Part shown: piece by piece, positions 44,842 to 52,491 of the stretch
Layout: each line of letters starts with the position of its first letter
How positions within the stretch are numbered: the first letter of the stretch is position 1
NCBI GenBank assembly: GCA_038316385.1
Contig: JBBQAN010000001.1
Coordinates: 11,381-75,380, forward strand
Source of the DNA: Lysobacterales bacterium
GTDB taxonomy: Bacteria > Pseudomonadota > Gammaproteobacteria > Xanthomonadales > Xanthomonadaceae
Reading direction: 5' to 3'
DNA: 64,000 bases
The notes under the pieces: model-generated
Told to the model about the DNA's origin: nothing
The model's input: the letters and a program-made list of their open reading frames with translations, nothing else
The model's database searches: none
Made by a program: the position numbers and the translations under genes

Positions 44842-45846
44842 TCAGGATGAAGACCGTATGGCCCATGCGGCTGCCAGCCGCTGCAAACCGTCATCGAAAT
44901 TCACTTGCGGTGCATACCCGAAATCGCGGCGCGCCGCGGAAATGTCGTACCAATGTGTAGTTGCAAACTGTTCGGCGAGAAAGCGCGTCATCGGCGGCTC
45001 GCCTTTCAGCGGCAATGCGCGCCACGCGACTTCGAGAATTGCACCGGCCGCGTAGGCAACGCCGAACGGAATCGTTCCCCGCACCTGCGGTGCGCCAACT
45101 GCACCGAGTAATGCGTTGATGGTTACGCGCGCGCTACGCGGATCGCCGTTGGAAATGAAGTACGGCTTGCCCGCGCAGCCCGTACCGACCGCCAGATGAT
45201 CGAATGCGTCCAGATGCGCCTGCGCCGCGTTTTCGACGTAGGTGCTGTCGATCAGGTTCTCGCCGTCGCCGACGAAACGCAATCGACCTGCGCGAGCGCG
45301 TTCGACCAAGCGTGGCAGCAATTGATTGTCGCCTGGTCCCCAGATCAGGCGCGGGCGCAATGCAACAGTCGCCAGCGCTCCATCGTTCGCCGCGAGCACG
45401 GCTTTCTCGGCGATGGTCTTGGTGATCGGATACGCGGCCTTGAAGTGGTCGCCGTACGGTGTGTCGATTTCATTGCCGCCCGCGACGGGATGGTTCGCAC
45501 GATGGGTCACGCTCGGCGTGGAGGTATAAACAAGTTTGCCGATCCCGTGCGTGCGGCACGCGGCAATCACGTTGTCGGTGCCGACCACATTCGCGAGTCG
45601 ATAGCTTTCGTAGCTACCCCACGCGCCGGCCTTTGCGGCATTGTGGAAGATCGCATCCATGCTGCGCGCGGCTTCGCGCATCGCATCTGCATCGGCCAAA
45701 TCTCCGCGAATCTGGCGTACGCCGAGCTGATCGAGTTCCGGATACACGCCGCGATTGAAACTTGCCACGTCGTAGCCGCGCGCAACCAGCAAACGGCAGA
45801 TCGCCTGACCCAGAAAGCCGCCGCCGCCCGTGACGAGTATCTTCAT
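44842..45846 (-). CDS. oleD: OleD, NAD(P)H-dependent 2-alkyl-3-oxoalkanoate reductase (3-beta-HSD/SDR family)
   Basis: [13 protein letters not shown] Rossmann motif and YxxxK (YPITK). Context with oleA/B/C. Confidence 0.8.
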
Positions 45847-46247
45847 CGGGGTTCGCCGTTACACCCTCCCCTGCTTACAGGGGAGGGTTGGGGAGGGGTC
45901 GAAACCTGCCGCCAGATTTCAGCAAGCACATCGTCCGTTCGCATCAAAACAGCGTCATTCCAGAAGCGCAGTACGTGATATCCGTTGGCTTCGATCTTTG
46001 CCGTTCTCGCTGCGTCTTCAGTTGCGCGATCAACATGTTGGCCAAGGTCAAGCTCGATAACCAGCCTCGCTTCCACACAGGCGAAATCGGCAACACATCC
46101 AGCAATGGGATATTGACGGCGGAATTTCATATTCGCGACTTGACGAAGCCGCAGATGCAGCCACAGTCGTCGCTCGGCATCGGTTGCCGAGTTTCTCAAT
46201 GCACGAGCGTTGATCCAGATTCGTTGCAAGGTTTTACCCCCTCCCAA
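45843..46247 (-). CDS. DUF559 (Vsr-like fold) endonuclease-domain protein
   Basis: [23 protein letters not shown]...[17 protein letters not shown]...LVIELD.GQH...[12 protein letters not shown] is the DUF559 pattern. Both ORF ends run into repeat copies. The real start is probably an internal TTG near 46229. Confidence 0.7.
45864..45898. repeat. dispersed repeat, forward half: hairpin CCCTCCCCTGCTTACAGGGGAGGG + G-box TTGGGGAGGGG
   Basis: Near-identical to 48039-48073 and similar to 52544-52580. Supplies the last codons and stop region of the DUF559 ORF. Confidence 0.8.
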
Positions 46248-46346
46248 CCTGTCCCGCCCTGCCGGGCGTTCTTCGCCGCCCGATCTGTCGCTGGCAGATC
46301 GTACAACGGCGGCTCATCACCCCCTGCGCGCAGGGGGAGGAGCTAA
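46237..46346. repeat. dispersed repeat, reverse half (C-box CCCCCTCCCAACC ... hairpin CCCCCTGCGCGCAGGGGGAGGAGCTAA), expanded by ~70 bp of internal sequence
   Basis: The C-box is the exact reverse complement of a G-box consensus. The distal part parallels 48121-48148. It contains the oleC stop codon. Confidence 0.7.
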
Positions 46347-48094
46347 CCGCCGAGTTTGTTTGTGGCCCACGCTGCCAGTTTTTCGCGGCCGATCTTGGCG
46401 TTGTGGCGGATGTCGACTGGAAATTTCGGATGGAACAGGACGGTTGTGATCCTCGCCGTGTGCACGTATCTCTCAGCACTATGGCGCAGCGCGTCTGCGA
46501 TCCGCGCATGCTGATCTTTGCCGATGCCGGCGCGCAATTCCACGCACAACACTGGAGTCTGCTTGCCGTGGATGCCGACGCCGACGAGCGCGCTCCGTTT
46601 CACATCCGGATGCGTGTTGAAGACGGGCTCGACTTGTTCTGTATACAACGGTCCGTCTGCAGTTTCGACACGATGCGATTTGCGGCCGCAGAACCACAAG
46701 CGGCCTTCTTCATCGAAATAGCCGAGATCGCCCATGCGATGGACGATGCGTTCGCCGTCCGGCAAACGTTCGCGAATCTTCGCCAGCCGCGTCGCCTCGG
46801 GACGGTTGAAATAGCTGTCGGTCGCGGTCGGTCCGGCGACAGTGATTTCACCGATGGCTTGCGCGCCGAGTTCGGATTGTGCGAGCAGCAAATCGTCCGA
46901 CCATTCCGCGATAGCCGCATCGTCGATGCGGATGATGCGCACGTCGTTCGGCGGCACCCGCCGGCCGACGCAGGTTCCGGCACCACGTTCTGTCAGTTCG
47001 CGTGTGGTTTCCAGTCCGCGGCCTTCGATCACCGCGACAGGCAGACATTCTGTCGCACCGTAGGGCGTCCATAGTTGCGCATCGTCTGGCAGCAACGCGC
47101 GCATCTTGCCGACGACATCCGGCGGCACCGGTGCTCCGGCAGAAGTGACGCGGCGAATCGTCGGTAGTTTTTCGCCAAAGCGCGCCAGCACATCAACGAG
47201 TGCAGGCGAACCGAACAATTGCGTGACCCCAAAGCGCGCGATTGCATCGTGCAGTTTTTTCGGATCGGCGCGCGCAGGCCGCGTCGGGTCCATGTCGGGA
47301 ATGATCGAGGTCAGGCCTAGCGCCGGATCGAATAATGCGAACGGAGGAAATGTCGGCAAATCCACGCCGCCGGGTTCGATGCCGAACGCATCGCGCAGCA
47401 TCGCGATTTGCGCGACAAGATGCCGATGCCTATAGACCACGCCTTTTGGCACGCCGGTCGATCCGGAAGTAAACAGGATCGCGGCGATATGGTCGGGCTG
47501 CGTTTCCGCTAGCTGCGCGCCTGCATTCGCGCCCAGCGCTTCGACCTGCCACAGCGTCGCGCCGCGCCAGAACCAGCGCTTGCCGACAGTGACCTGGATG
47601 CGCGCAGACTTCGCCCAGCCGAGAGCGATCCGCGCTGCGTGCGCAAGCGGGATACCGATGAAGGCTTGCGGCTGCGCTTCATCGAGGCATTGTTTGAGCG
47701 CACTTTTGTCGATGCCCGGATCGACCAGTACCGGCACCGCGCCGAGTTTGAACAACGCGAACATCAACAGGAAGAATTCCGGCGACGGTCGCACCATGAC
47801 GACCGCGCGCACGCCGCGCACGATGCCGGTGCGTGCGAGTCCCGCGGCGATCGCATCGCTGCGGCGATCGAGATCGCGATAGGTCAGCGTGAGGTCGTAT
47901 CGCGCGCGGCCATTGATGCCGCGCGAACCCGGGCAACGCATCGCGATCTGCTCGCCGCGCTCGGCGGCCATGCGTGGCAGGGTCGCGGCGATATTGCAGG
48001 AACCATGCCCCGACAAGGTCGGCGGCGCAGCTCTTGCTCCCTCCCCTGCTTGCAGGGGAGGGTTAGGGAGGGGTGCCTTGACTTGGGATTCCAT
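46343..48094 (-). CDS. oleC: OleC, AMP-dependent beta-lactone synthetase
   Basis: CNIAATLPRMAAERGEQIAMRCPG and VMVRPSPEFFLLMFALFKLGAVPVLVDPGIDK match my recollection of Xanthomonas OleC. AMP-binding FTSGSTGVPKG. The first ~25 codons of the maximal ORF are repeat-encoded. Alternative TTG start at 48016. Confidence 0.85.
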   Translation of the reverse strand: MESQVKAPLPNPPLQAGEGARAAPPTLSGHGSCNIAATLPRMAAERGEQIAMRCPGSRGINGRARYDLTLTYRDLDRRSDAIAAGLARTGIVRGVRAVVMVRPSPEFFLLMFALFKLGAVPVLVDPGIDKSALKQCLDEAQPQAFIGIPLAHAARIALGWAKSARIQVTVGKRWFWRGATLWQVEALGANAGAQLAETQPDHIAAILFTSGSTGVPKGVVYRHRHLVAQIAMLRDAFGIEPGGVDLPTFPPFALFDPALGLTSIIPDMDPTRPARADPKKLHDAIARFGVTQLFGSPALVDVLARFGEKLPTIRRVTSAGAPVPPDVVGKMRALLPDDAQLWTPYGATECLPVAVIEGRGLETTRELTERGAGTCVGRRVPPNDVRIIRIDDAAIAEWSDDLLLAQSELGAQAIGEITVAGPTATDSYFNRPEATRLAKIRERLPDGERIVHRMGDLGYFDEEGRLWFCGRKSHRVETADGPLYTEQVEPVFNTHPDVKRSALVGVGIHGKQTPVLCVELRAGIGKDQHARIADALRHSAERYVHTARITTVLFHPKFPVDIRHNAKIGREKLAAWATNKLGG

Positions 48095-48144
48095 CGCGAA
48101 AGACTAACCCCCTCCCAACCTCCCCCTGCCTTCGCAAGGGGAGG
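48039..48144. repeat. cargo-less repeat pair: hairpin+G-box (48039-48073), 34-bp spacer, C-box+hairpin (48108-48144)
   Basis: CCCTCCCCTGCTTGCAGGGGAGGGTTAGGGAGGGG ... CCCCCTCCCAACCTCCCCCTGCCTTCGCAAGGGGAGGA. The spacer holds the oleB stop and the maximal oleC ATG. Confidence 0.8.
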
Positions 48145-49048
48145 AGCTAAGAGGATGCGTATCAAGAAACGCTCGAATCGCCGGCACCAGAATCGTGTGC
48201 TTATCCTCGAGCACATAGTGCCCGGCGTCCTTGAATGCATGCACTTCCGCATTCGGCAGCGCACTGGTGAAGCTTTCGAGGAAATGCTTGTCGAATACGA
48301 AATCGCGCAGGCCCCAGCCGATGAACGTCGGGCGATCGGCGAAATCGTGCAGATGTTTGCCAGCTTGCTCGACCAGCGCCCATGCCGGATCGCCTGGCGA
48401 CAACGGAATATCCTCCACGAAGCGTAATGTCGCGATGCGGTTGGCCCAGGAATCGTAGGGTGCAAGGTACGCGCGACGCACATCGGCGGGCATCGGCGTC
48501 ACCACACCCTGCTTCACCGCGCCCGTCGCGAATGCGTTGAAGCCACGAATCATTCCAGCGCCGAGCATCGAATCACGCCCGAGCTTCAACTGCCACGGCA
48601 TCGCTTTCGCATTCGGCAACGGAAATGCGGCGGTGTTGAGGATCACCAACCGCTTCACGCGCGACGCATTCTTCAGCGCCCAGCCAAAGCCGATCATCCC
48701 GCCCCAATCGTGCACCGCGAGCGTGATGTCGCCATCGATGCCGGCATGCTGCAACAGCGCGTCGAGATCGTCGACACGCGAGGACAGCGTGTAGTCGTAG
48801 TGTGGCGACGAATTTGCCGCATCTGAAGGCTTGTCCGACAGTCCCATGCCAATGTGATCGGGCACGATGCAACGGTAACGGTCGCGCAGCCCCAGCACGA
48901 GGTGCCGCCAGTAATAACTCCACGACGGGTTGCCGTGCAGCATGACGATGACTTCACCATGGCTCGGGCCTTCGTCGAGGTACGACATCGCGATGCCGGG
49001 GCGCACTTCGAAGCGCTGTGGAGTGTATGGGTAGTCTGGGTAGTTCAT
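48104..49048 (-). CDS. oleB: OleB, alpha/beta-hydrolase beta-lactone decarboxylase
   Basis: YPYTPQRFEV...MSYLDEGP...MLHGNPSWSYYWR and the nucleophile-elbow region VHDWGG (haloalkane-dehalogenase-like). The last ~18 codons are repeat-encoded. Start at ATG 49048. Confidence 0.85.
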   Translation of the reverse strand: MNYPDYPYTPQRFEVRPGIAMSYLDEGPSHGEVIVMLHGNPSWSYYWRHLVLGLRDRYRCIVPDHIGMGLSDKPSDAANSSPHYDYTLSSRVDDLDALLQHAGIDGDITLAVHDWGGMIGFGWALKNASRVKRLVILNTAAFPLPNAKAMPWQLKLGRDSMLGAGMIRGFNAFATGAVKQGVVTPMPADVRRAYLAPYDSWANRIATLRFVEDIPLSPGDPAWALVEQAGKHLHDFADRPTFIGWGLRDFVFDKHFLESFTSALPNAEVHAFKDAGHYVLEDKHTILVPAIRAFLDTHPLSSSPCEGRGRLGGG

Positions 49049-49270
49049 GCTATGCCGTGTGCTTCTGTAGTTCAGTGATGGTTTGGCTAGCCGCTTGACG
49101 TGCAAGTAGATTCGGCTTACGGTTCTCAGTGAAATGGGTTGGGACCACTCGACCGGCGCTGGGCTTCTGGGACATCCTGGGGGCCCTTTTGCTTTCTAGG
49201 CGAATACTTTCAATCCATTGCCGGTCACGCAATTGCGGTCCCCGGTGAAGAATTTCTCCTGCAACACATC

Positions 49271-50422
49271 CTAGGCACGGTTGGGCTGCCCGGGACGCAG
49301 GACGCTCAACCCGATCGGTCGGGCAGTCAAGTCCGCCAACTGCAGGCCTTCGGAATTCGTTTTCTTGTCGGCGACGAGCATGCGCAAGGGCAGCTGATTC
49401 CGGTCTCGGTTCGCTCCATCGCATACGCGTCTGAACTCCAGTTCCAGCGCCTGATCTTCCTTGGCACCCCGCGCCTCGAAGACGATGAAGGTGTCGCGAT
49501 GCACGTGCGCCTTAATCTTCAGGAAGTGCGCCACTCGCTCAAGGCCAAACTGCATGGCGAGATGATACGGGTGGTACGGTTCGTTGTATTTCGTCTTGTG
49601 CTTCAGCTTGTCGATGACGATCGCGACGATCGTCACATCCGTGGCTGCGATCACATCCGTCAATCGGCCCATGAACGCTTCGCGCGCTGGCTGGTTCAAC
49701 TGCGAGAACGCACCTTTCCTCTTGCGTATGTCGTGCTCGTGCCGGATCACGAGATCATGGCCGAAGGTATCGAATTTGAGTTTCGGATTGTCGGGGTCAC
49801 GGCATTGACATTCGTCGATGCGCCGCTGGTACGAGCCGTCGGCGTGCGCTTCGCGCGAAAACAGCCAGTAAAACTCTGCAAAGCGCTCCGCATCGCGAAA
49901 GTCGCTGTAGTGCCAGGACTTGTAAACCTGGTCGAGCGCCGTATCTGGATGTGGGCGTAGCCGACAATCGAGGATGCGGATCTGCTCGAAATCGGTGAGC
50001 ACGGCCAGTGGCGTGTTAGCGCTGTATCCGTAACGCAAGGTCTGGAAATGGGCGTCCACGCTGCGCGCCAAGTCAACACTCGGCTTCGTGGCTTCGACAA
50101 AAAAGCGCACGTCGCGGAAGTTCGGTTTCAAGTAGAACGCGTAGTCGGCACGTTTCTGCGCGCGTGCCGCGCCGACACTCACACCACGCTCGACTTTGAC
50201 CTCCTGCTCGTAGGGATTGTGTTCGCGCTCATGGTCGACGTCCCAGCCGAGCGCCTTCAACAATGGGTCGATGAAGTCCTTGCGCACTGCGGCCTGCTGA
50301 TAGCCCGGGAGCAGATAGGTGTCGCGCGCGTATTTTGCGAAGTGGTCGAGCAATGCCACAATTTTTGCGTGTGCGATCTCGAACGCAGATTTCTGATCCG
50401 TATCATTCAATAAACCGGTCAT
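49271..50422 (-). CDS. fusion protein: N-terminal HsdR_N-type PD-(D/E)xK restriction-endonuclease-like domain + C-terminal DUF3800-like domain
   Basis: N-terminal half: FIDPLLKALGWDV...RADYAF...FFVEATKPS...AVLTDFEQIRILD...FYWLFSREA, as in the N-termini of type I R / type IIG enzymes. C-terminal half: RIDEC..., IVAIVIDKLKH, YHPYH, ERV, FEARGAKED and GLQLADLTARPIG, as in DUF3800. Confidence 0.65.
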   Translation of the reverse strand: MTGLLNDTDQKSAFEIAHAKIVALLDHFAKYARDTYLLPGYQQAAVRKDFIDPLLKALGWDVDHEREHNPYEQEVKVERGVSVGAARAQKRADYAFYLKPNFRDVRFFVEATKPSVDLARSVDAHFQTLRYGYSANTPLAVLTDFEQIRILDCRLRPHPDTALDQVYKSWHYSDFRDAERFAEFYWLFSREAHADGSYQRRIDECQCRDPDNPKLKFDTFGHDLVIRHEHDIRKRKGAFSQLNQPAREAFMGRLTDVIAATDVTIVAIVIDKLKHKTKYNEPYHPYHLAMQFGLERVAHFLKIKAHVHRDTFIVFEARGAKEDQALELEFRRVCDGANRDRNQLPLRMLVADKKTNSEGLQLADLTARPIGLSVLRPGQPNRA

Positions 50423-50496
50423 AGCGGCTGCGCGCCTTCGCTGAGGATGGCGAGATGGGTTACGAGTCTACCCGACAGCAGCCACGAGCTGCGTCG

Positions 50497-51207
50497 TCAC
50501 CAATGCGTCGGCTTCTTGATCGGCTTCTTTCGTGTGGGTACCTGCAAAGGAAGTTGCGCATGTAGAAGTTCTTCATCAAGAATGTGCTTCCTTGTCCATT
50601 GCGCGTATTTAGAAAGTGACGTGCTGATGCTTCGATGACTGCTAGAACCGGTTGTTGGCGGAGGTACGGGGGTTATGACTCCGACGATAATTTCGGGGAA
50701 ATCCTCGCGAACTGCTTCAAGCACTGGCTCCGCGTCGCTATCGTTAGAGCAAATCACAATCTGCTCGAATCGTCCGTTGACGGCATCTCGATACATTGCC
50801 ATCGCGAGATTGACATCTGTCTTCTTCTCCTCGAGTTTCCAAACCCGCGTCCTGGCGTTTCGATCGAATGGTTGGCCAGCAATAAATGTTGGCAGGAGTG
50901 TGCCGCTCGTGTCGTGACTATGTTTTCCGGTCGTGATCGAGAACCGCTCAGGGTGCAGCTCACTGAGCGCGCGGTGGTAGCTTTGTTGAGCAATCATGGA
51001 CGCTTGGCCATGGCTGGCGAACTTAGCGAGCGCTGGAGCGGTGAAATATCTGACAGCCTTGAGTACGGCTTCAGGGTCCTGCACCCTGATAATGGCCTCA
51101 AACAAGGCGACCACATCAAGCCATTTGTACTCGGTATGGCGAAGACGCCCGTAGTAAAGGTTGTAGCCGTCAATGTAGACAGCAGTGTCTCGTGGCTTAA
51201 TTCCCAC
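50497..51207 (-). CDS. NYN (PIN-like, LabA/DUF88) ribonuclease-domain protein
   Basis: Four acidic motifs: VYIDGYNLYY, EEKKTDVNLAMAM, ICSNDSDAEP. GTG start with GGGGAA 8 nt upstream. Basic C-terminal tail. Confidence 0.75.
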   Translation of the reverse strand: MGIKPRDTAVYIDGYNLYYGRLRHTEYKWLDVVALFEAIIRVQDPEAVLKAVRYFTAPALAKFASHGQASMIAQQSYHRALSELHPERFSITTGKHSHDTSGTLLPTFIAGQPFDRNARTRVWKLEEKKTDVNLAMAMYRDAVNGRFEQIVICSNDSDAEPVLEAVREDFPEIIVGVITPVPPPTTGSSSHRSISTSLSKYAQWTRKHILDEELLHAQLPLQVPTRKKPIKKPTHW

Positions 51208-51232
51208 TGGCGATTCCCCAAAGCCAGAAATG

Positions 51233-51258
51233 AAAAGACCGCCTTGCGGCGGTCTTTT
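51233..51258. terminator. strong hairpin AAAAGACCGCC-TTGC-GGCGGTCTTTT (intrinsic-terminator-like on both strands)
   Basis: 11-bp perfect stem flanked by A/T runs. It lies 216 bp downstream of the oleA stop and 26 bp upstream of the NYN start. Confidence 0.6.
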
Positions 51259-51474
51259 CGTCCCAAGTCGGAGTCAACTAAATGACACGACGAGGGAAGA
51301 GTGGTGTGCGGATTAGAGCAGACTGGCCATTCTAAGTCAAGCTGCGGTACTAAAAATGGACAGACTAAGGCTTAGTTCGTGTTGCTGGGTGGCCCAAAGC
51401 TTTCGTTAAAACCGGTTTTGGCGGTTTTAAGAAAGATTGCTGTCAAAACTTTCCCTTGTTGCGTGTTACGACGC

Positions 51475-52491
51475 TTACCAGACCACCTCGGCCATCGAGC
51501 AGTTCAGGCCCGAGCCGATGCCGAGCAGGGCGACGCGGTCACCTTTCTTGAGGCGGCCGAGATCGCGCAGCTTGCTTAACACGATCGGCACCGATGCTGG
51601 GCCGATGTTGCCGTGTTCGGCGAAGATCGTGAGCACTTTCGCCGGATCGATGCCGAAGGCCTTGATGAAAGCCTGCGTGTGCACTTGGCTGACCTGGTGG
51701 ATCACGAACTCGTCGAGCTCCTCCACCACCCAGCCGAGCGCGAGCTTGGCGGCGACGAAGGTCTTCTGCGCGAGCTTCAGGCCTTCGATCAGCAAGGTCT
51801 TGGTGTCGGTGACCATGCGGTCGAGATTGCCGCGGCACAGCTTGTTCCACTCGGTCGCCGCGCGGGTGACCCCGCCCTTGTAGCGCGGAGCATCCGGCGT
51901 AAGTTCGCTGCGCGAGAGCACCATCGCGGCCGCGCCGCAGCCCAAAGTGAGCGAGGCGAGTTCGTTGCGGAACTGTTCCTCGGTCACGTCGGGCGCGCAC
52001 AGGCGTTCGAGGGTTTTCTCGTAAACAAGGTTCGCGGTTTCACCATCGACGACCAGCGCGTATTCGATTTCGCCGCGCTCGATCATCCGACTGGCGATGT
52101 CCATGCCGTTGAGGAAGGCGAGGCAGGCGTTGGTGACATCGAAGTTCTGGCAGGTGTCGCCGAGGCGCAGGTTGCCGCAGATGATGCTGGCGGTGGACGG
52201 CTCAAGATAGTCGCGGCTGACCGAGGTATTGACCAGCAGGCCGATTTGATCGCGCGATACACCCGAATCGAGCAGCGCCTTTTCGGCCGCCAGCGTCGCT
52301 GCATCCGAGGACTCGATGCCGACGCCCCACATGCGGCGTGCATGGATGCCGGCAATGTCACGCAATACGTCGGTCTTGATGCCCAGCCGTTGCATGGTCG
52401 GCTGCAGACGCAGGTTGATCGCATCCGAGCTGAGCCGCTCGGGTGCATCGATGTGCGCCAGTCCGGCGATGGAGACGTGTTCAAAGAGCAT
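51475..52491 (-). CDS. oleA: OleA, thiolase-fold head-to-head fatty-acyl condensing enzyme (FabH-like)
   Basis: MLFEHVSIAGLAHIDAPERLSSDAINLRLQPTMQRLGIKTDVLRDIAGIHARRMWG closely matches my recollection of the Xanthomonas OleA N-terminus. Start set at ATG 52491. The upstream part of the maximal ORF is repeat-encoded. Confidence 0.9.
   Translation of the reverse strand: MLFEHVSIAGLAHIDAPERLSSDAINLRLQPTMQRLGIKTDVLRDIAGIHARRMWGVGIESSDAATLAAEKALLDSGVSRDQIGLLVNTSVSRDYLEPSTASIICGNLRLGDTCQNFDVTNACLAFLNGMDIASRMIERGEIEYALVVDGETANLVYEKTLERLCAPDVTEEQFRNELASLTLGCGAAAMVLSRSELTPDAPRYKGGVTRAATEWNKLCRGNLDRMVTDTKTLLIEGLKLAQKTFVAAKLALGWVVEELDEFVIHQVSQVHTQAFIKAFGIDPAKVLTIFAEHGNIGPASVPIVLSKLRDLGRLKKGDRVALLGIGSGLNCSMAEVVW

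What the first reader, a model, noticed from the sequence alone, without database searches (positions are those of the whole stretch)
49106..51474. Foreign two-gene cassette (NYN nuclease + HsdR_N/DUF3800-like fusion) inserted in the middle of the oleABCD operon: candidate uncharacterised defence or RNA-targeting module
oleA (51475-52491) and oleB (48104-49048) are normally neighbours in ole clusters. Here ~2.4 kb of clearly AT-richer DNA separates them.

The insert carries two co-oriented genes 74 bp apart. The first is a 236-aa NYN/PIN-like ribonuclease with all four acidic motifs intact. The second is a 383-aa protein joining a restriction-endonuclease-type N-domain to a DUF3800-like domain.

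A nuclease-plus-nuclease pairing, atypical composition and insertion into a conserved operon are all hallmarks of defence cargo. I do not recognise this pair as any named system. No integrase, transposase or target-site duplication is visible, so how it arrived is also unclear.
Basis: partly seen in the sequence, partly recalled or inferred. Interest (0 to 1): 0.75.

Follow-up and report, generated by a model that had tools for sequence, protein, structure and literature searches.

The report
Decayed defence-gene remnant between oleA and oleB
The foreign DNA between oleA and oleB is real, but it is one intact stand-alone NYN ribonuclease gene plus the wreck of a SoFic / restriction-modification / DUF3800 island, sitting in a spot where related bacteria keep swapping defence genes, so it is not a new two-gene system.

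Summary
A 2,426-bp, GC-poor segment (49049-51474) separates oleA from oleB and carries a 236-aa NYN gene and a 383-aa ORF 74 bp apart.

The interpretation mostly fails. The 383-aa "fusion" is a singleton chimera of gene fragments. Codons 1-204 are the N-terminal nuclease domain of a roughly 1,000-aa type IIG restriction-modification enzyme. The rest is a 244-aa DUF3800 gene that has lost its first 38 codons and carries a 1-nt deletion and a TGG->TAG nonsense mutation. The 34 nt before the ORF's ATG are the last 11 codons of a deleted SoFic gene.

The NYN gene is intact. It belongs to the published candidate family HEC-09, which gave no phage protection when tested. It has no conserved neighbour in 80 other loci and is common on plasmids.

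Among 80 Lysobacterales species, the oleA|oleB junction is empty in 28. In at least 23 it holds 0.4-6 kb of variable cargo, including SoFic, type IIG and type III R-M genes, a methylase-HNH gene and, once, another NYN gene.

Verdict: a decayed defence-island remnant in a recurrent hotspot without an integrase. It is a new member of a known kind, of modest interest.

The parts
51475..52491 (-). oleA (OleA-type 3-oxoacyl-ACP synthase III). It is the left anchor of the hotspot, and homology to relatives stops exactly at its stop codon.
   Evidence: NCBIfam NF006720 E=1e-136. blastn against L007 and L167 ends at 51475/51474.
51208..51474 (-). AT-rich spacer (GC 0.49) upstream of the NYN gene. The proximal ~113 nt (51208-51320) travel with the NYN gene and are presumably its own promoter and 5' UTR.
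   Evidence: The L167 NYN locus aligns from 51320 through the gene at 65% nt identity. GC. No sigma-70 consensus match was found.
50497..51207 (-). Intact stand-alone NYN-domain (PIN-like) ribonuclease gene of the HEC-09 candidate family, 236 aa.
   Evidence: Pfam NYN 34.3 bits. PADLOC HEC-09 E=3.6e-28 over profile positions 5-202 of 203. 1,549 homologues of about 236 aa, and the residues invariant across 14 aligned sequences are present here, including D13, N16, E127, D131, D156 and D158. AF2 model pLDDT 86.7, with best PDB matches 2qip (Vibrio protein of unknown function) and 6fdl (MARF1 NYN domain).
50419..50456 (-). Remnant of a deleted SoFic (Fic/DOC) gene. Its last 11 codons (LAILSEGAQPL) and stop codon remain, and the stop overlaps the next ATG as ATGA.
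   Evidence: 97% nt identity over 34 nt to the 3' end of the SoFic gene of L007 (12283-12316), confirmed by translation. L007 Fic matches PADLOC SoFic at 3.5e-118.
49811..50422 (-). First 204 codons of an Eco57I/MmeI-like type IIG R-M gene. Only the N-terminal PD-(D/E)xK nuclease domain is present, with VEAKKP changed to VEATKP. The methyltransferase and target-recognition parts are deleted.
   Evidence: PADLOC REase_MTase_IIG PDLC03604 E=4.8e-41, profile positions 8-188 of 1011. 89% aa identity to P0011 and 75% to P0007. 81% nt identity to L005, ending at 49811. K112T is unique among 12 aligned sequences.
49784..49810 (-). Nine codons (CQCRDPDNP) of DUF3800 DNA read out of frame. A 1-nt deletion between 49784 and 49783 brings the ORF back into the DUF3800 frame. 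The deletion junction carries GTCGA(T/C)G microhomology at about 49811-49817.
   Evidence: Three-way comparison of the window, L005 and L002.
49271..49783 (-). DUF3800 codons 50-219 in frame, ended by a TAG (49271-49273) where the homologue has TGG (W220). The N-terminal DE motif lies in the lost part.
   Evidence: 93% aa and 91% nt identity to the intact 244-aa gene of L002. The motif VDESGD is at residues 10-15 of P0002. The motif definition comes from PMC7736814.
49049..49270 (-). The last 24 codons and original stop of the DUF3800 gene, now untranslated (49196-49270), plus the DUF3800-oleB spacer (49049-49195).
   Evidence: Collinear with L002 2061-2282 in an alignment of 91% nt identity that runs on into the first 84 nt of oleB.
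48104..49048 (-). oleB (alpha/beta hydrolase), the right anchor of the hotspot.
   Evidence: Pfam Abhydrolase_1 E=1e-30. Homology to L007 and L167 resumes at 49050 and 49040.

Best explanation
The oleA|oleB junction of Lysobacterales is a recurrent hotspot for variable, mostly defence-type cargo, and no integrase is associated with it. In this genome the hotspot once held a larger island. The inferred ancestral order is oleA - NYN - SoFic - type IIG R-M - DUF3800 - oleB, about 6 kb.

The island has since decayed. One deletion removed nearly all of SoFic. A second deletion, at a 7-nt microhomology, joined codon 204 of the type IIG gene to codon 39 of the DUF3800 gene. That deletion removed the methyltransferase and specificity parts of the enzyme and the DE catalytic motif of DUF3800. 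A 1-nt deletion and a TGG->TAG mutation complete the damage. The 383-aa ORF is therefore an accidental chimera of two dead genes, not a designed fusion.

The only intact cargo gene is the 236-aa NYN protein, which does not depend on any neighbour. It is inferred to be a metal-dependent single-strand RNA endonuclease acting alone. Its role could be abortive-infection-type defence or competition between mobile elements. This is unproven.

Cargo is inferred to be exchanged by homologous recombination in the conserved flanking ole genes.

Shown: the anatomy, the lesions, the singleton status, the lack of linkage and the hotspot. Inferred: the ancestral order, NYN's activity and role, and the exchange mechanism.
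For: 1. The chimera is a singleton. One search finds no full-length homologue; hits cover either the N-terminal or the C-terminal half.
2. The lesions are visible at nucleotide level. L005 (type IIG) homology ends at 49811 and L002 (DUF3800) homology starts at 49814. There is a 1-nt deletion, and TGG->TAG at DUF3800 codon 220, with the following 24 codons still conserved.
3. The ExK lysine is replaced only in this sequence, and the DE motif lies in the deleted codons.
4. A SoFic 3' remnant of 34 nt at 97% identity abuts the ATG.
5. This DUF3800 subfamily is normally the last, 4-nt-overlapping gene of an R-M operon, as seen in L001, L173, L175, L177 and L002. A single intra-operon deletion therefore explains the fusion.
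6. The hotspot is real. Of 80 species loci, 28 are empty and 23 hold 0.4-6.2 kb. At least 18 carry a SoFic-like gene right after oleA, often followed by type IIG, type III or C5-methylase/HNH genes, and fragments also occur (L051, L065).
7. L167 has oleA - HATPase/DUF4325 - type IIG - NYN - oleB.
8. NYN is a solo gene. No conserved neighbour was found in 80 loci. It occurs on 421 plasmids and matches HEC-09.
Against: The reading frame across the junction is open, and the 1-nt deletion happens to restore the DUF3800 frame. dN/dS of both fragments against their nearest homologues is low (0.09 and 0.05). Recent decay and continued selection therefore cannot be told apart from one sequence.

No relative with the intact NYN-SoFic-IIG-DUF3800 order was found, so the ancestral order is a reconstruction.

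Several high-GC inserts in other species gave no Pfam hits, and one holds a TonB-dependent receptor. The hotspot is therefore not purely defensive.

Exchange by homologous recombination is suggested only weakly. oleA dS is low in all comparisons, probably because of codon bias.
Confidence: 0.85

Rival explanations
1. The NYN gene and the 383-aa ORF form a functional new two-gene defence or RNA-targeting module. The chimera would act as a sensor or regulator for the NYN RNase.
For: The two ORFs are co-oriented and 74 bp apart. The chimeric ORF is open for 383 codons, and a 1-nt deletion restores the DUF3800 frame. It retains a folded-looking nuclease domain and the QxxD region of DUF3800.
Against: The architecture is a singleton among 5.8 billion clusters. 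The families are not linked in 80 NYN loci or in 4 independent DUF3800 loci. The catalytic K is changed to T, the DE motif is lost, and there is a premature stop. The 74-bp spacer contains a SoFic gene remnant, showing that the adjacency arose by deletion. In L167 the NYN gene has entirely different neighbours.
Confidence: 0.04
2. The NYN gene is not a defence gene. It is a plasmid or mobile-element maintenance, competition or anti-defence factor that landed here by recombination with a plasmid.
For: Homologues lie on 421 plasmids, of which 316 are conjugative or mobilizable. These include 64 Xanthomonas plasmids, the best of them at 60-62% identity, and IncN/IncR plasmids of Klebsiella and E. 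coli. HEC-09 protected against none of the phages tested. Only 2 phage records carry a homologue.
Against: The family was defined by being embedded in Hma defence systems. Here and in L167 it sits among R-M and SoFic cargo. Some metagenomic neighbours are HsdR and STAND NTPases. Defence genes are themselves frequent on plasmids, so plasmid carriage does not discriminate.
Confidence: 0.3
3. The segment is ancestral ole-cluster content, an accessory ole gene pair, rather than an insertion.
For: The genes are co-oriented with the operon. Other small genes such as DUF559 are stably embedded between oleC and oleD in many relatives.
Against: 28 of 80 species have a 41-195-nt oleA-oleB gap. None of the 80 carries NYN or chimera homologues at E<=1e-10. 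GC and GC3 are atypical. The content derives from R-M, SoFic and DUF3800 genes.
Confidence: 0.01

Closest known systems
HEC-09 (Hma-embedded candidate 09; PADLOC PDLC04163; Payne et al., bioRxiv 10.1101/2024.01.29.577857)
   Same: It is a single NYN-domain protein. It matches the HMM over nearly its full length (E=3.6e-28). The predicted fold resembles the MARF1 NYN domain, and conserved aspartates are present.
   Different: Here it is not embedded in an Hma system. It lies in an oleA|oleB hotspot next to R-M and SoFic wreckage. The family's defence role is itself unproven, since no protection was seen against the phages tested.
Type IIG restriction-modification enzymes of the Eco57I/MmeI type (PADLOC PDLC03604)
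   Same: The N-terminal PD-(D/E)xK nuclease domain is 75-89% identical to that of real enzymes.
   Different: Only 204 of about 1,011 residues remain. There is no methyltransferase or target-recognition domain, and the ExK lysine is replaced by T. It is a gene fragment, not an enzyme.
DUF3800 (PF12686), an RNase H-like protein linked to R-M operons, type VII retrons and some Cas12a2 loci
   Same: Residues 50-219 are 93% identical to an intact 244-aa member, and the QxxD region is present.
   Different: The N-terminal DE motif and the last 25 residues are missing. In intact loci it is a separate gene that overlaps the last R-M gene by 4 nt.
Defence hotspots between conserved core genes, without dedicated mobility genes (as described for E. 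coli and Pseudomonas pan-genomes; from my own knowledge, not checked in a paper here)
   Same: The flanks are conserved and the cargo is variable and defence-rich. Empty and occupied alleles occur among related species, gene fragments are frequent, and there is no integrase or target-site duplication.
   Different: The hotspot lies inside a biosynthetic gene cluster, between two genes that are only tens of nucleotides apart in the empty state, and the cargo examined is mostly co-oriented with it.
SoFic (Fic-domain AMPylating abortive-infection toxin; PMC12249575 abstract)
   Same: The 34 nt upstream of the chimeric ORF match the 3' end of a SoFic gene found at the same hotspot in L007.
   Different: Only 11 codons survive here, so there is no SoFic function.

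Membership tests
NYN domain (PF01936) / HEC-09 | Sequence match to the family models above threshold | tested here: met
   Pfam 34.3 bits against a 24.2 cut-off. PADLOC HEC-09 E=3.6e-28 over profile positions 5-202 of 203.
NYN domain (PF01936) / HEC-09 | PIN-like NYN fold with conserved acidic active-site residues | tested here: met
   AF2 model pLDDT 86.7. The top PDB matches are 2qip and 6fdl (MARF1 NYN), both with probability 1.00. D13, E127, D131, D156 and D158 are invariant in 14 homologues.
NYN domain (PF01936) / HEC-09 | Embedded within an Hma (helicase-methylase-ATPase) defence system | tested here: not met
   The neighbours are oleA and R-M/SoFic/DUF3800 remnants. Neighbourhoods are variable in 80 other loci.
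NYN domain (PF01936) / HEC-09 | Ribonuclease activity or anti-phage protection | not testable with these tools
   The published HEC-09 representative gave no protection against the phages tested.
Type IIG R-M enzyme | N-terminal PD-(D/E)xK endonuclease domain with D...ExK | tested here: inconclusive
   The domain is present (E=4.8e-41), but E-A-K reads E-A-T here, unlike all 11 homologues. The motif assignment is by inference.
Type IIG R-M enzyme | Fused N6-adenine methyltransferase and target-recognition domains | tested here: not met
   Only profile positions 8-188 of 1011 match. Homology to L005 ends at codon 204.
DUF3800 (PF12686) | Full-length domain with the N-terminal DE motif and the C-terminal QxxD motif | tested here: not met
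   Only profile positions 62-147 of 149 match. The DE motif (VDESGD) lies in the deleted codons, QLAD is retained, and there is a premature TAG.
Two-gene defence or toxin-antitoxin operon | The two families recur as neighbours in unrelated genomes | tested here: not met
   0 of 80 NYN loci have a DUF3800 or type IIG N-domain homologue, and no neighbour cluster recurs. 0 of 4 independent DUF3800 loci have an NYN gene.
Defence hotspot between core genes | The same core-gene junction is empty in some relatives and filled with different cargo in others | tested here: met
   28 loci are empty and 23 hold 0.4-6.2 kb among 80 species.
Defence hotspot between core genes | Cargo enriched in known defence genes | tested here: met
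   SoFic-like genes occur in at least 18 loci, along with type IIG, type III and C5-methylase/HNH genes. Not all inserts could be annotated, and one holds a TonB-dependent receptor.
Integrative mobile element | Integrase or transposase gene and flanking direct repeats | tested here: not met
   No such ORF lies in 49049-51474. No repeat flanks the insert. The boundaries coincide with the oleA stop and the oleB start.

The most novel reading that the evidence does not exclude
The oleA|oleB junction may be a dedicated site for exchanging defence genes inside an operon across Lysobacterales, working without an integrase. Co-oriented cargo (SoFic-R-M-DUF3800 modules, NYN) would be swapped by recombination in the flanking ole genes and transcribed by read-through from the ole promoter. 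That would tie defence expression to regulation of membrane-olefin synthesis. Within this reading, the surviving NYN gene would be a functional solo RNase effector retained by selection while its neighbours decayed.
Probability: 0.15. Interest if true: 0.55.

Novelty: new member of a known kind. Interest (0 to 1): 0.3.

Why it matters
The finding shows that an eye-catching nuclease-nuclease "fusion" can be the accidental product of deletions in a decaying defence island. Such singletons should not be counted as new systems or new architectures. In the protein collection this ORF is held as an ordinary protein from an NCBI record, with a DUF3800 domain assignment.

On the positive side, the work identifies a recurrent cargo hotspot inside the ole gene cluster of Lysobacterales. 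That hotspot could be mined for SoFic/R-M/DUF3800 modules and for untested solo genes such as HEC-09-type NYN proteins. It also gives a natural case for asking how insertions between tightly spaced genes affect expression of the downstream genes.

Tried and rejected
1. Looked for full-length homologues of the 383-aa ORF. None was found.
2. Looked for a conserved partner of the NYN family in 80 metagenomic loci, using tblastn and neighbour clustering. None was found.
3. Tested whether the gene upstream of DUF3800 in L002 is the missing C-terminus of the type IIG enzyme. It is not; it shows no similarity to the L005 C-terminal fragment and is weakly type III res-like.
4. Looked for att-like repeats, IS ends or REP elements flanking the insert. 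None flank it; REP-like palindromes occur only at other ole junctions.
5. Scanned Rfam for an RNA element in the spacers. No hit.
6. Scanned for promoters and terminators. No sigma-70 consensus match and only weak hairpins, so this was uninformative.
7. Used dS of oleA against oleB-D as a test for recombination in the flanks. oleA dS is lower in every comparison (0.26 against about 0.7 for L007), but this probably reflects its strong codon bias, so the result is not decisive.
8. A sequence-profile search of the PDB with the NYN alignment found nothing. The fold search was needed instead.
9. Tried to identify the source organism by exact protein look-up. No name was returned.
10. Pfam annotation of long ORFs in the high-GC inserts of other species mostly returned nothing. 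Those ORF calls may be spurious.
Full report
OBSERVATION. The ORFs are as described. A 236-aa ORF lies at 50497-51207 (-) and a 383-aa ORF at 49271-50422 (-), 74 bp apart. They sit between oleA (51475-52491) and oleB (48104-49048), which are followed by oleC (46343-48094) and oleD (44842-45846). NYN scores 34.3 bits. DUF3800 scores 35 bits but only over profile positions 62-147 of 149. HSDR_N and HSDR_N_2 fall just below their cut-offs. The insert proper is 49049-51474 (2,426 bp). Its GC content is 0.554, the lowest of all windows of that size in the 64 kb (window mean 0.621). NYN GC3 is 0.565 against 0.70-0.84 for the ole genes.

THE 383-aa ORF IS A CHIMERA OF GENE FRAGMENTS. A search of 5.8 billion protein clusters finds only the sequence itself at full length. 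All other hits fall into two groups. One group is about 245-aa DUF3800 proteins that cover the C-terminal 44-45% of the query at up to 93% identity. The other is type IIG restriction-modification enzymes or their fragments, which cover the N-terminal part.

PADLOC places residues 19-204 on positions 8-188 of a 1,011-position type IIG REase-MTase model (E=4.8e-41). Pairwise alignments give 89% identity to P0011, an Eco57I/MmeI-type enzyme fragment, and 75% to P0007. Both alignments end at residues 204-205. Residues 210-383 align to residues 46-219 of the 244-aa DUF3800 protein P0002 at 93% identity.

At nucleotide level, homology to the type IIG locus L005 ends at window 49811 and homology to the DUF3800 locus L002 begins at 49814. 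The junction sits in a shared GTCGA(T/C)G microhomology. The next nine codons (CQCRDPDNP) are DUF3800 DNA read out of frame, and a 1-nt deletion between 49784 and 49783 returns the ORF to the DUF3800 frame. The ORF stops at a TAG where L002 has TGG (W220). The remaining 24 codons and the original stop codon are still recognisable downstream, at 49196-49270.

The functional motifs are damaged as well. The DE motif that characterises DUF3800 (PMC7736814) lies at residues 11-12 of the intact protein, inside the 38 deleted codons. The ExK of the nuclease domain reads VEAKKP in all 11 aligned homologues but VEATKP here.

A SOFIC REMNANT. The 34 nt directly upstream of the ORF's ATG (50423-50456) are 97% identical to the 3' end of a SoFic gene in locus L007. 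They translate to LAILSEGAQPL followed by a stop codon that overlaps the ATG as ATGA. A Fic gene once preceded the type IIG gene and has been deleted. The present NYN-to-ORF adjacency is therefore itself a product of deletion.

WHAT THE INTACT PIECES NORMALLY LOOK LIKE. This DUF3800 subfamily is the last gene of R-M operons and overlaps the preceding gene by 4 nt. It follows hsdS in four independent type I loci (L001, L173, L175, L177) and a type III res-like gene in L002. A single deletion within a type IIG-DUF3800 operon therefore explains the fusion.

L002 is also informative for another reason. Its intact DUF3800 gene is followed by the same 147-nt spacer and the start of oleB, in an alignment of 91% identity to the window. 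The right-hand end of the island is thus shared with another organism.

THE NYN GENE. It is intact. It has 1,549 homologues of about 236 aa. The residues that are invariant across a 14-sequence alignment are present in the window protein, including the acidic positions and a conserved C-terminal tail. The AlphaFold model is confident (pLDDT 86.7), and its best PDB matches are 2qip, a Vibrio protein of unknown function, and the MARF1 NYN domain 6fdl. The protein matches PADLOC HEC-09 over nearly the whole model.

HEC-09 is a published single-gene candidate found embedded in Hma systems. It is described as MARF1-like, and it gave no protection against any phage tested.

In 80 metagenomic loci with NYN homologues, none has a DUF3800 or type IIG N-domain homologue, and no neighbour family recurs beyond one locus sampled three times. 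The neighbours examined range from HsdR and a STAND NTPase to AcrB, PriA and a GGDEF-EAL protein. Homologues occur on 421 plasmids (Klebsiella 209, Xanthomonas 64) and in only 2 phage records.

THE SITE IS A HOTSPOT. oleA relatives were retrieved from 80 species-representative genomes, covering Arenimonas, Chiayiivirga, Pseudoxanthomonas, Luteimonas, Lysobacter and many MAGs. The closest is L007, at 99% OleA identity. The oleA-oleB gap is 41-195 nt in 28 loci and 0.4-6.2 kb in 23 loci. The rest could not be scored: either the contig ends or no oleB was found in the retrieved flank.

None of the 80 loci contains NYN or chimera homologues. At least 18 have a SoFic-like gene directly after oleA. 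Behind it lie a full-length type IIG enzyme (L007), type III mod/res genes (L014, L018, L082) or a C5-methylase/HNH gene (L016). Fragments also occur (L051, L065).

A separate contig, L167, reads oleA - HATPase/DUF4325 - type IIG - NYN (64% aa identity) - oleB. NYN genes have therefore entered this hotspot at least twice, with different company.

The boundaries coincide with the oleA stop and the oleB start, without repeats or mobility genes. In the nearest empty alleles, oleB appears to start a few nucleotides after the oleA stop, with an N-terminal extension that is absent from occupied alleles. Some high-GC inserts gave no annotation, and one carries a TonB-dependent receptor. The hotspot is therefore defence-rich but not exclusively defensive.

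MECHANISM. I conclude with confidence 0.85 that the segment is the decayed remnant of a defence island. The reconstructed ancestral order is NYN - SoFic - type IIG - DUF3800, and only the NYN gene is likely to be functional.

The 383-aa product, if made at all, lacks both the methyltransferase and target-recognition module that a type IIG nuclease needs and the DUF3800 catalytic motif. The low dN/dS of both fragments against their relatives (0.09 and 0.05) fits recent decay, although it cannot exclude continued selection.

The NYN protein is inferred to be a metal-dependent RNase that acts alone. Whether it serves phage defence or mobile-element competition is open; I give the non-defence reading about 0.3. 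Cargo turnover by homologous recombination in the ole flanks is an inference. The dS test was not decisive.

COMPARISON AND NOVELTY. The NYN gene is a member of a named but unvalidated candidate family. The chimera is not a member of any functional family. The hotspot resembles known defence hotspots flanked by core genes and is unusual only in lying inside a biosynthetic gene cluster. This is a new member of a known kind. I score interest at 0.3.

Noticed in passing
window 45843-46247 (-): A 134-aa DUF559 (Vsr-like endonuclease fold) gene sits between oleC and oleD. It has low GC3 (0.52). A DUF559 homologue occupies the same junction in many relatives (L007, L017, L018, L020, L021, L060, L069, L070, L073, L080-L085), so it is an old, stably embedded passenger of the ole cluster.
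   Followed up: partly
window 45859-45899 and 48034-48074; also 46236-46260 / 48107-48131 and 46329-46346 / 48133-48150: REP-like palindromic repeats (CCCTCCCCTGCTTRCAGGGGAGGG...) lie at the oleD|DUF559, DUF559|oleC and oleC|oleB junctions. They run into the annotated ends of oleB, oleC and DUF559, giving odd termini such as ...PCEGRGRLGGG. None flanks the NYN insert.
   Followed up: partly
L001 8001-8735; L173 7001-7741; L175 7001-7744; L177 7001-7753; L002 1401-2135: This roughly 245-aa DUF3800 subfamily is consistently the last gene of an R-M operon. It follows hsdS in four type I loci and a type III res-like gene in L002. In four of the five loci it overlaps the preceding gene by 4 nt; in L175 there is a 3-nt gap. 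This suggests an undescribed accessory role for R-M systems.
   Followed up: partly
L007 11151-15411; L014, L018, L082, L016, L051: SoFic-like genes directly downstream of oleA are repeatedly followed by an R-M gene. In L007 the SoFic stop and the R-M start overlap. This suggests SoFic-R-M modules that swap the R-M part.
   Followed up: partly
L002 2283-3203: In this metagenomic contig, oleB homology stops after 84 nt (28 codons) and a Bro-N domain gene follows. This is either a second insertion (a prophage?) into oleB or a chimeric assembly.
   Followed up: no
plasmid hits H27, H29, H32, H41; proteins P0134, P0222: Members of this NYN family are annotated in public records as '6-hydroxy-3-succinoylpyridine 3-monooxygenase HspA' or 'acetyltransferase'. 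These names look like propagated mis-annotations for a NYN-fold protein.
   Followed up: no
L008-L011, L015, L020, L021 (oleA-oleB spacer) versus window 49019-49048: In the closest empty alleles, oleB seems to start a few nucleotides after the oleA stop, with an extra N-terminal segment (...SAEQARVLAKG...). Occupied alleles and Pseudoxanthomonas start at MN(Y/L)P(D/G)YP. Insertions therefore replaced the original, tightly coupled oleB start.
   Followed up: no
window oleA 51475-52491 versus L007-L021: oleA has markedly lower synonymous divergence than oleB, oleC and oleD in every comparison (for example dS 0.26 against about 0.7 for L007), and a very high GC3 of 0.835. This could reflect codon bias or recombination at the hotspot flank.
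   Followed up: partly
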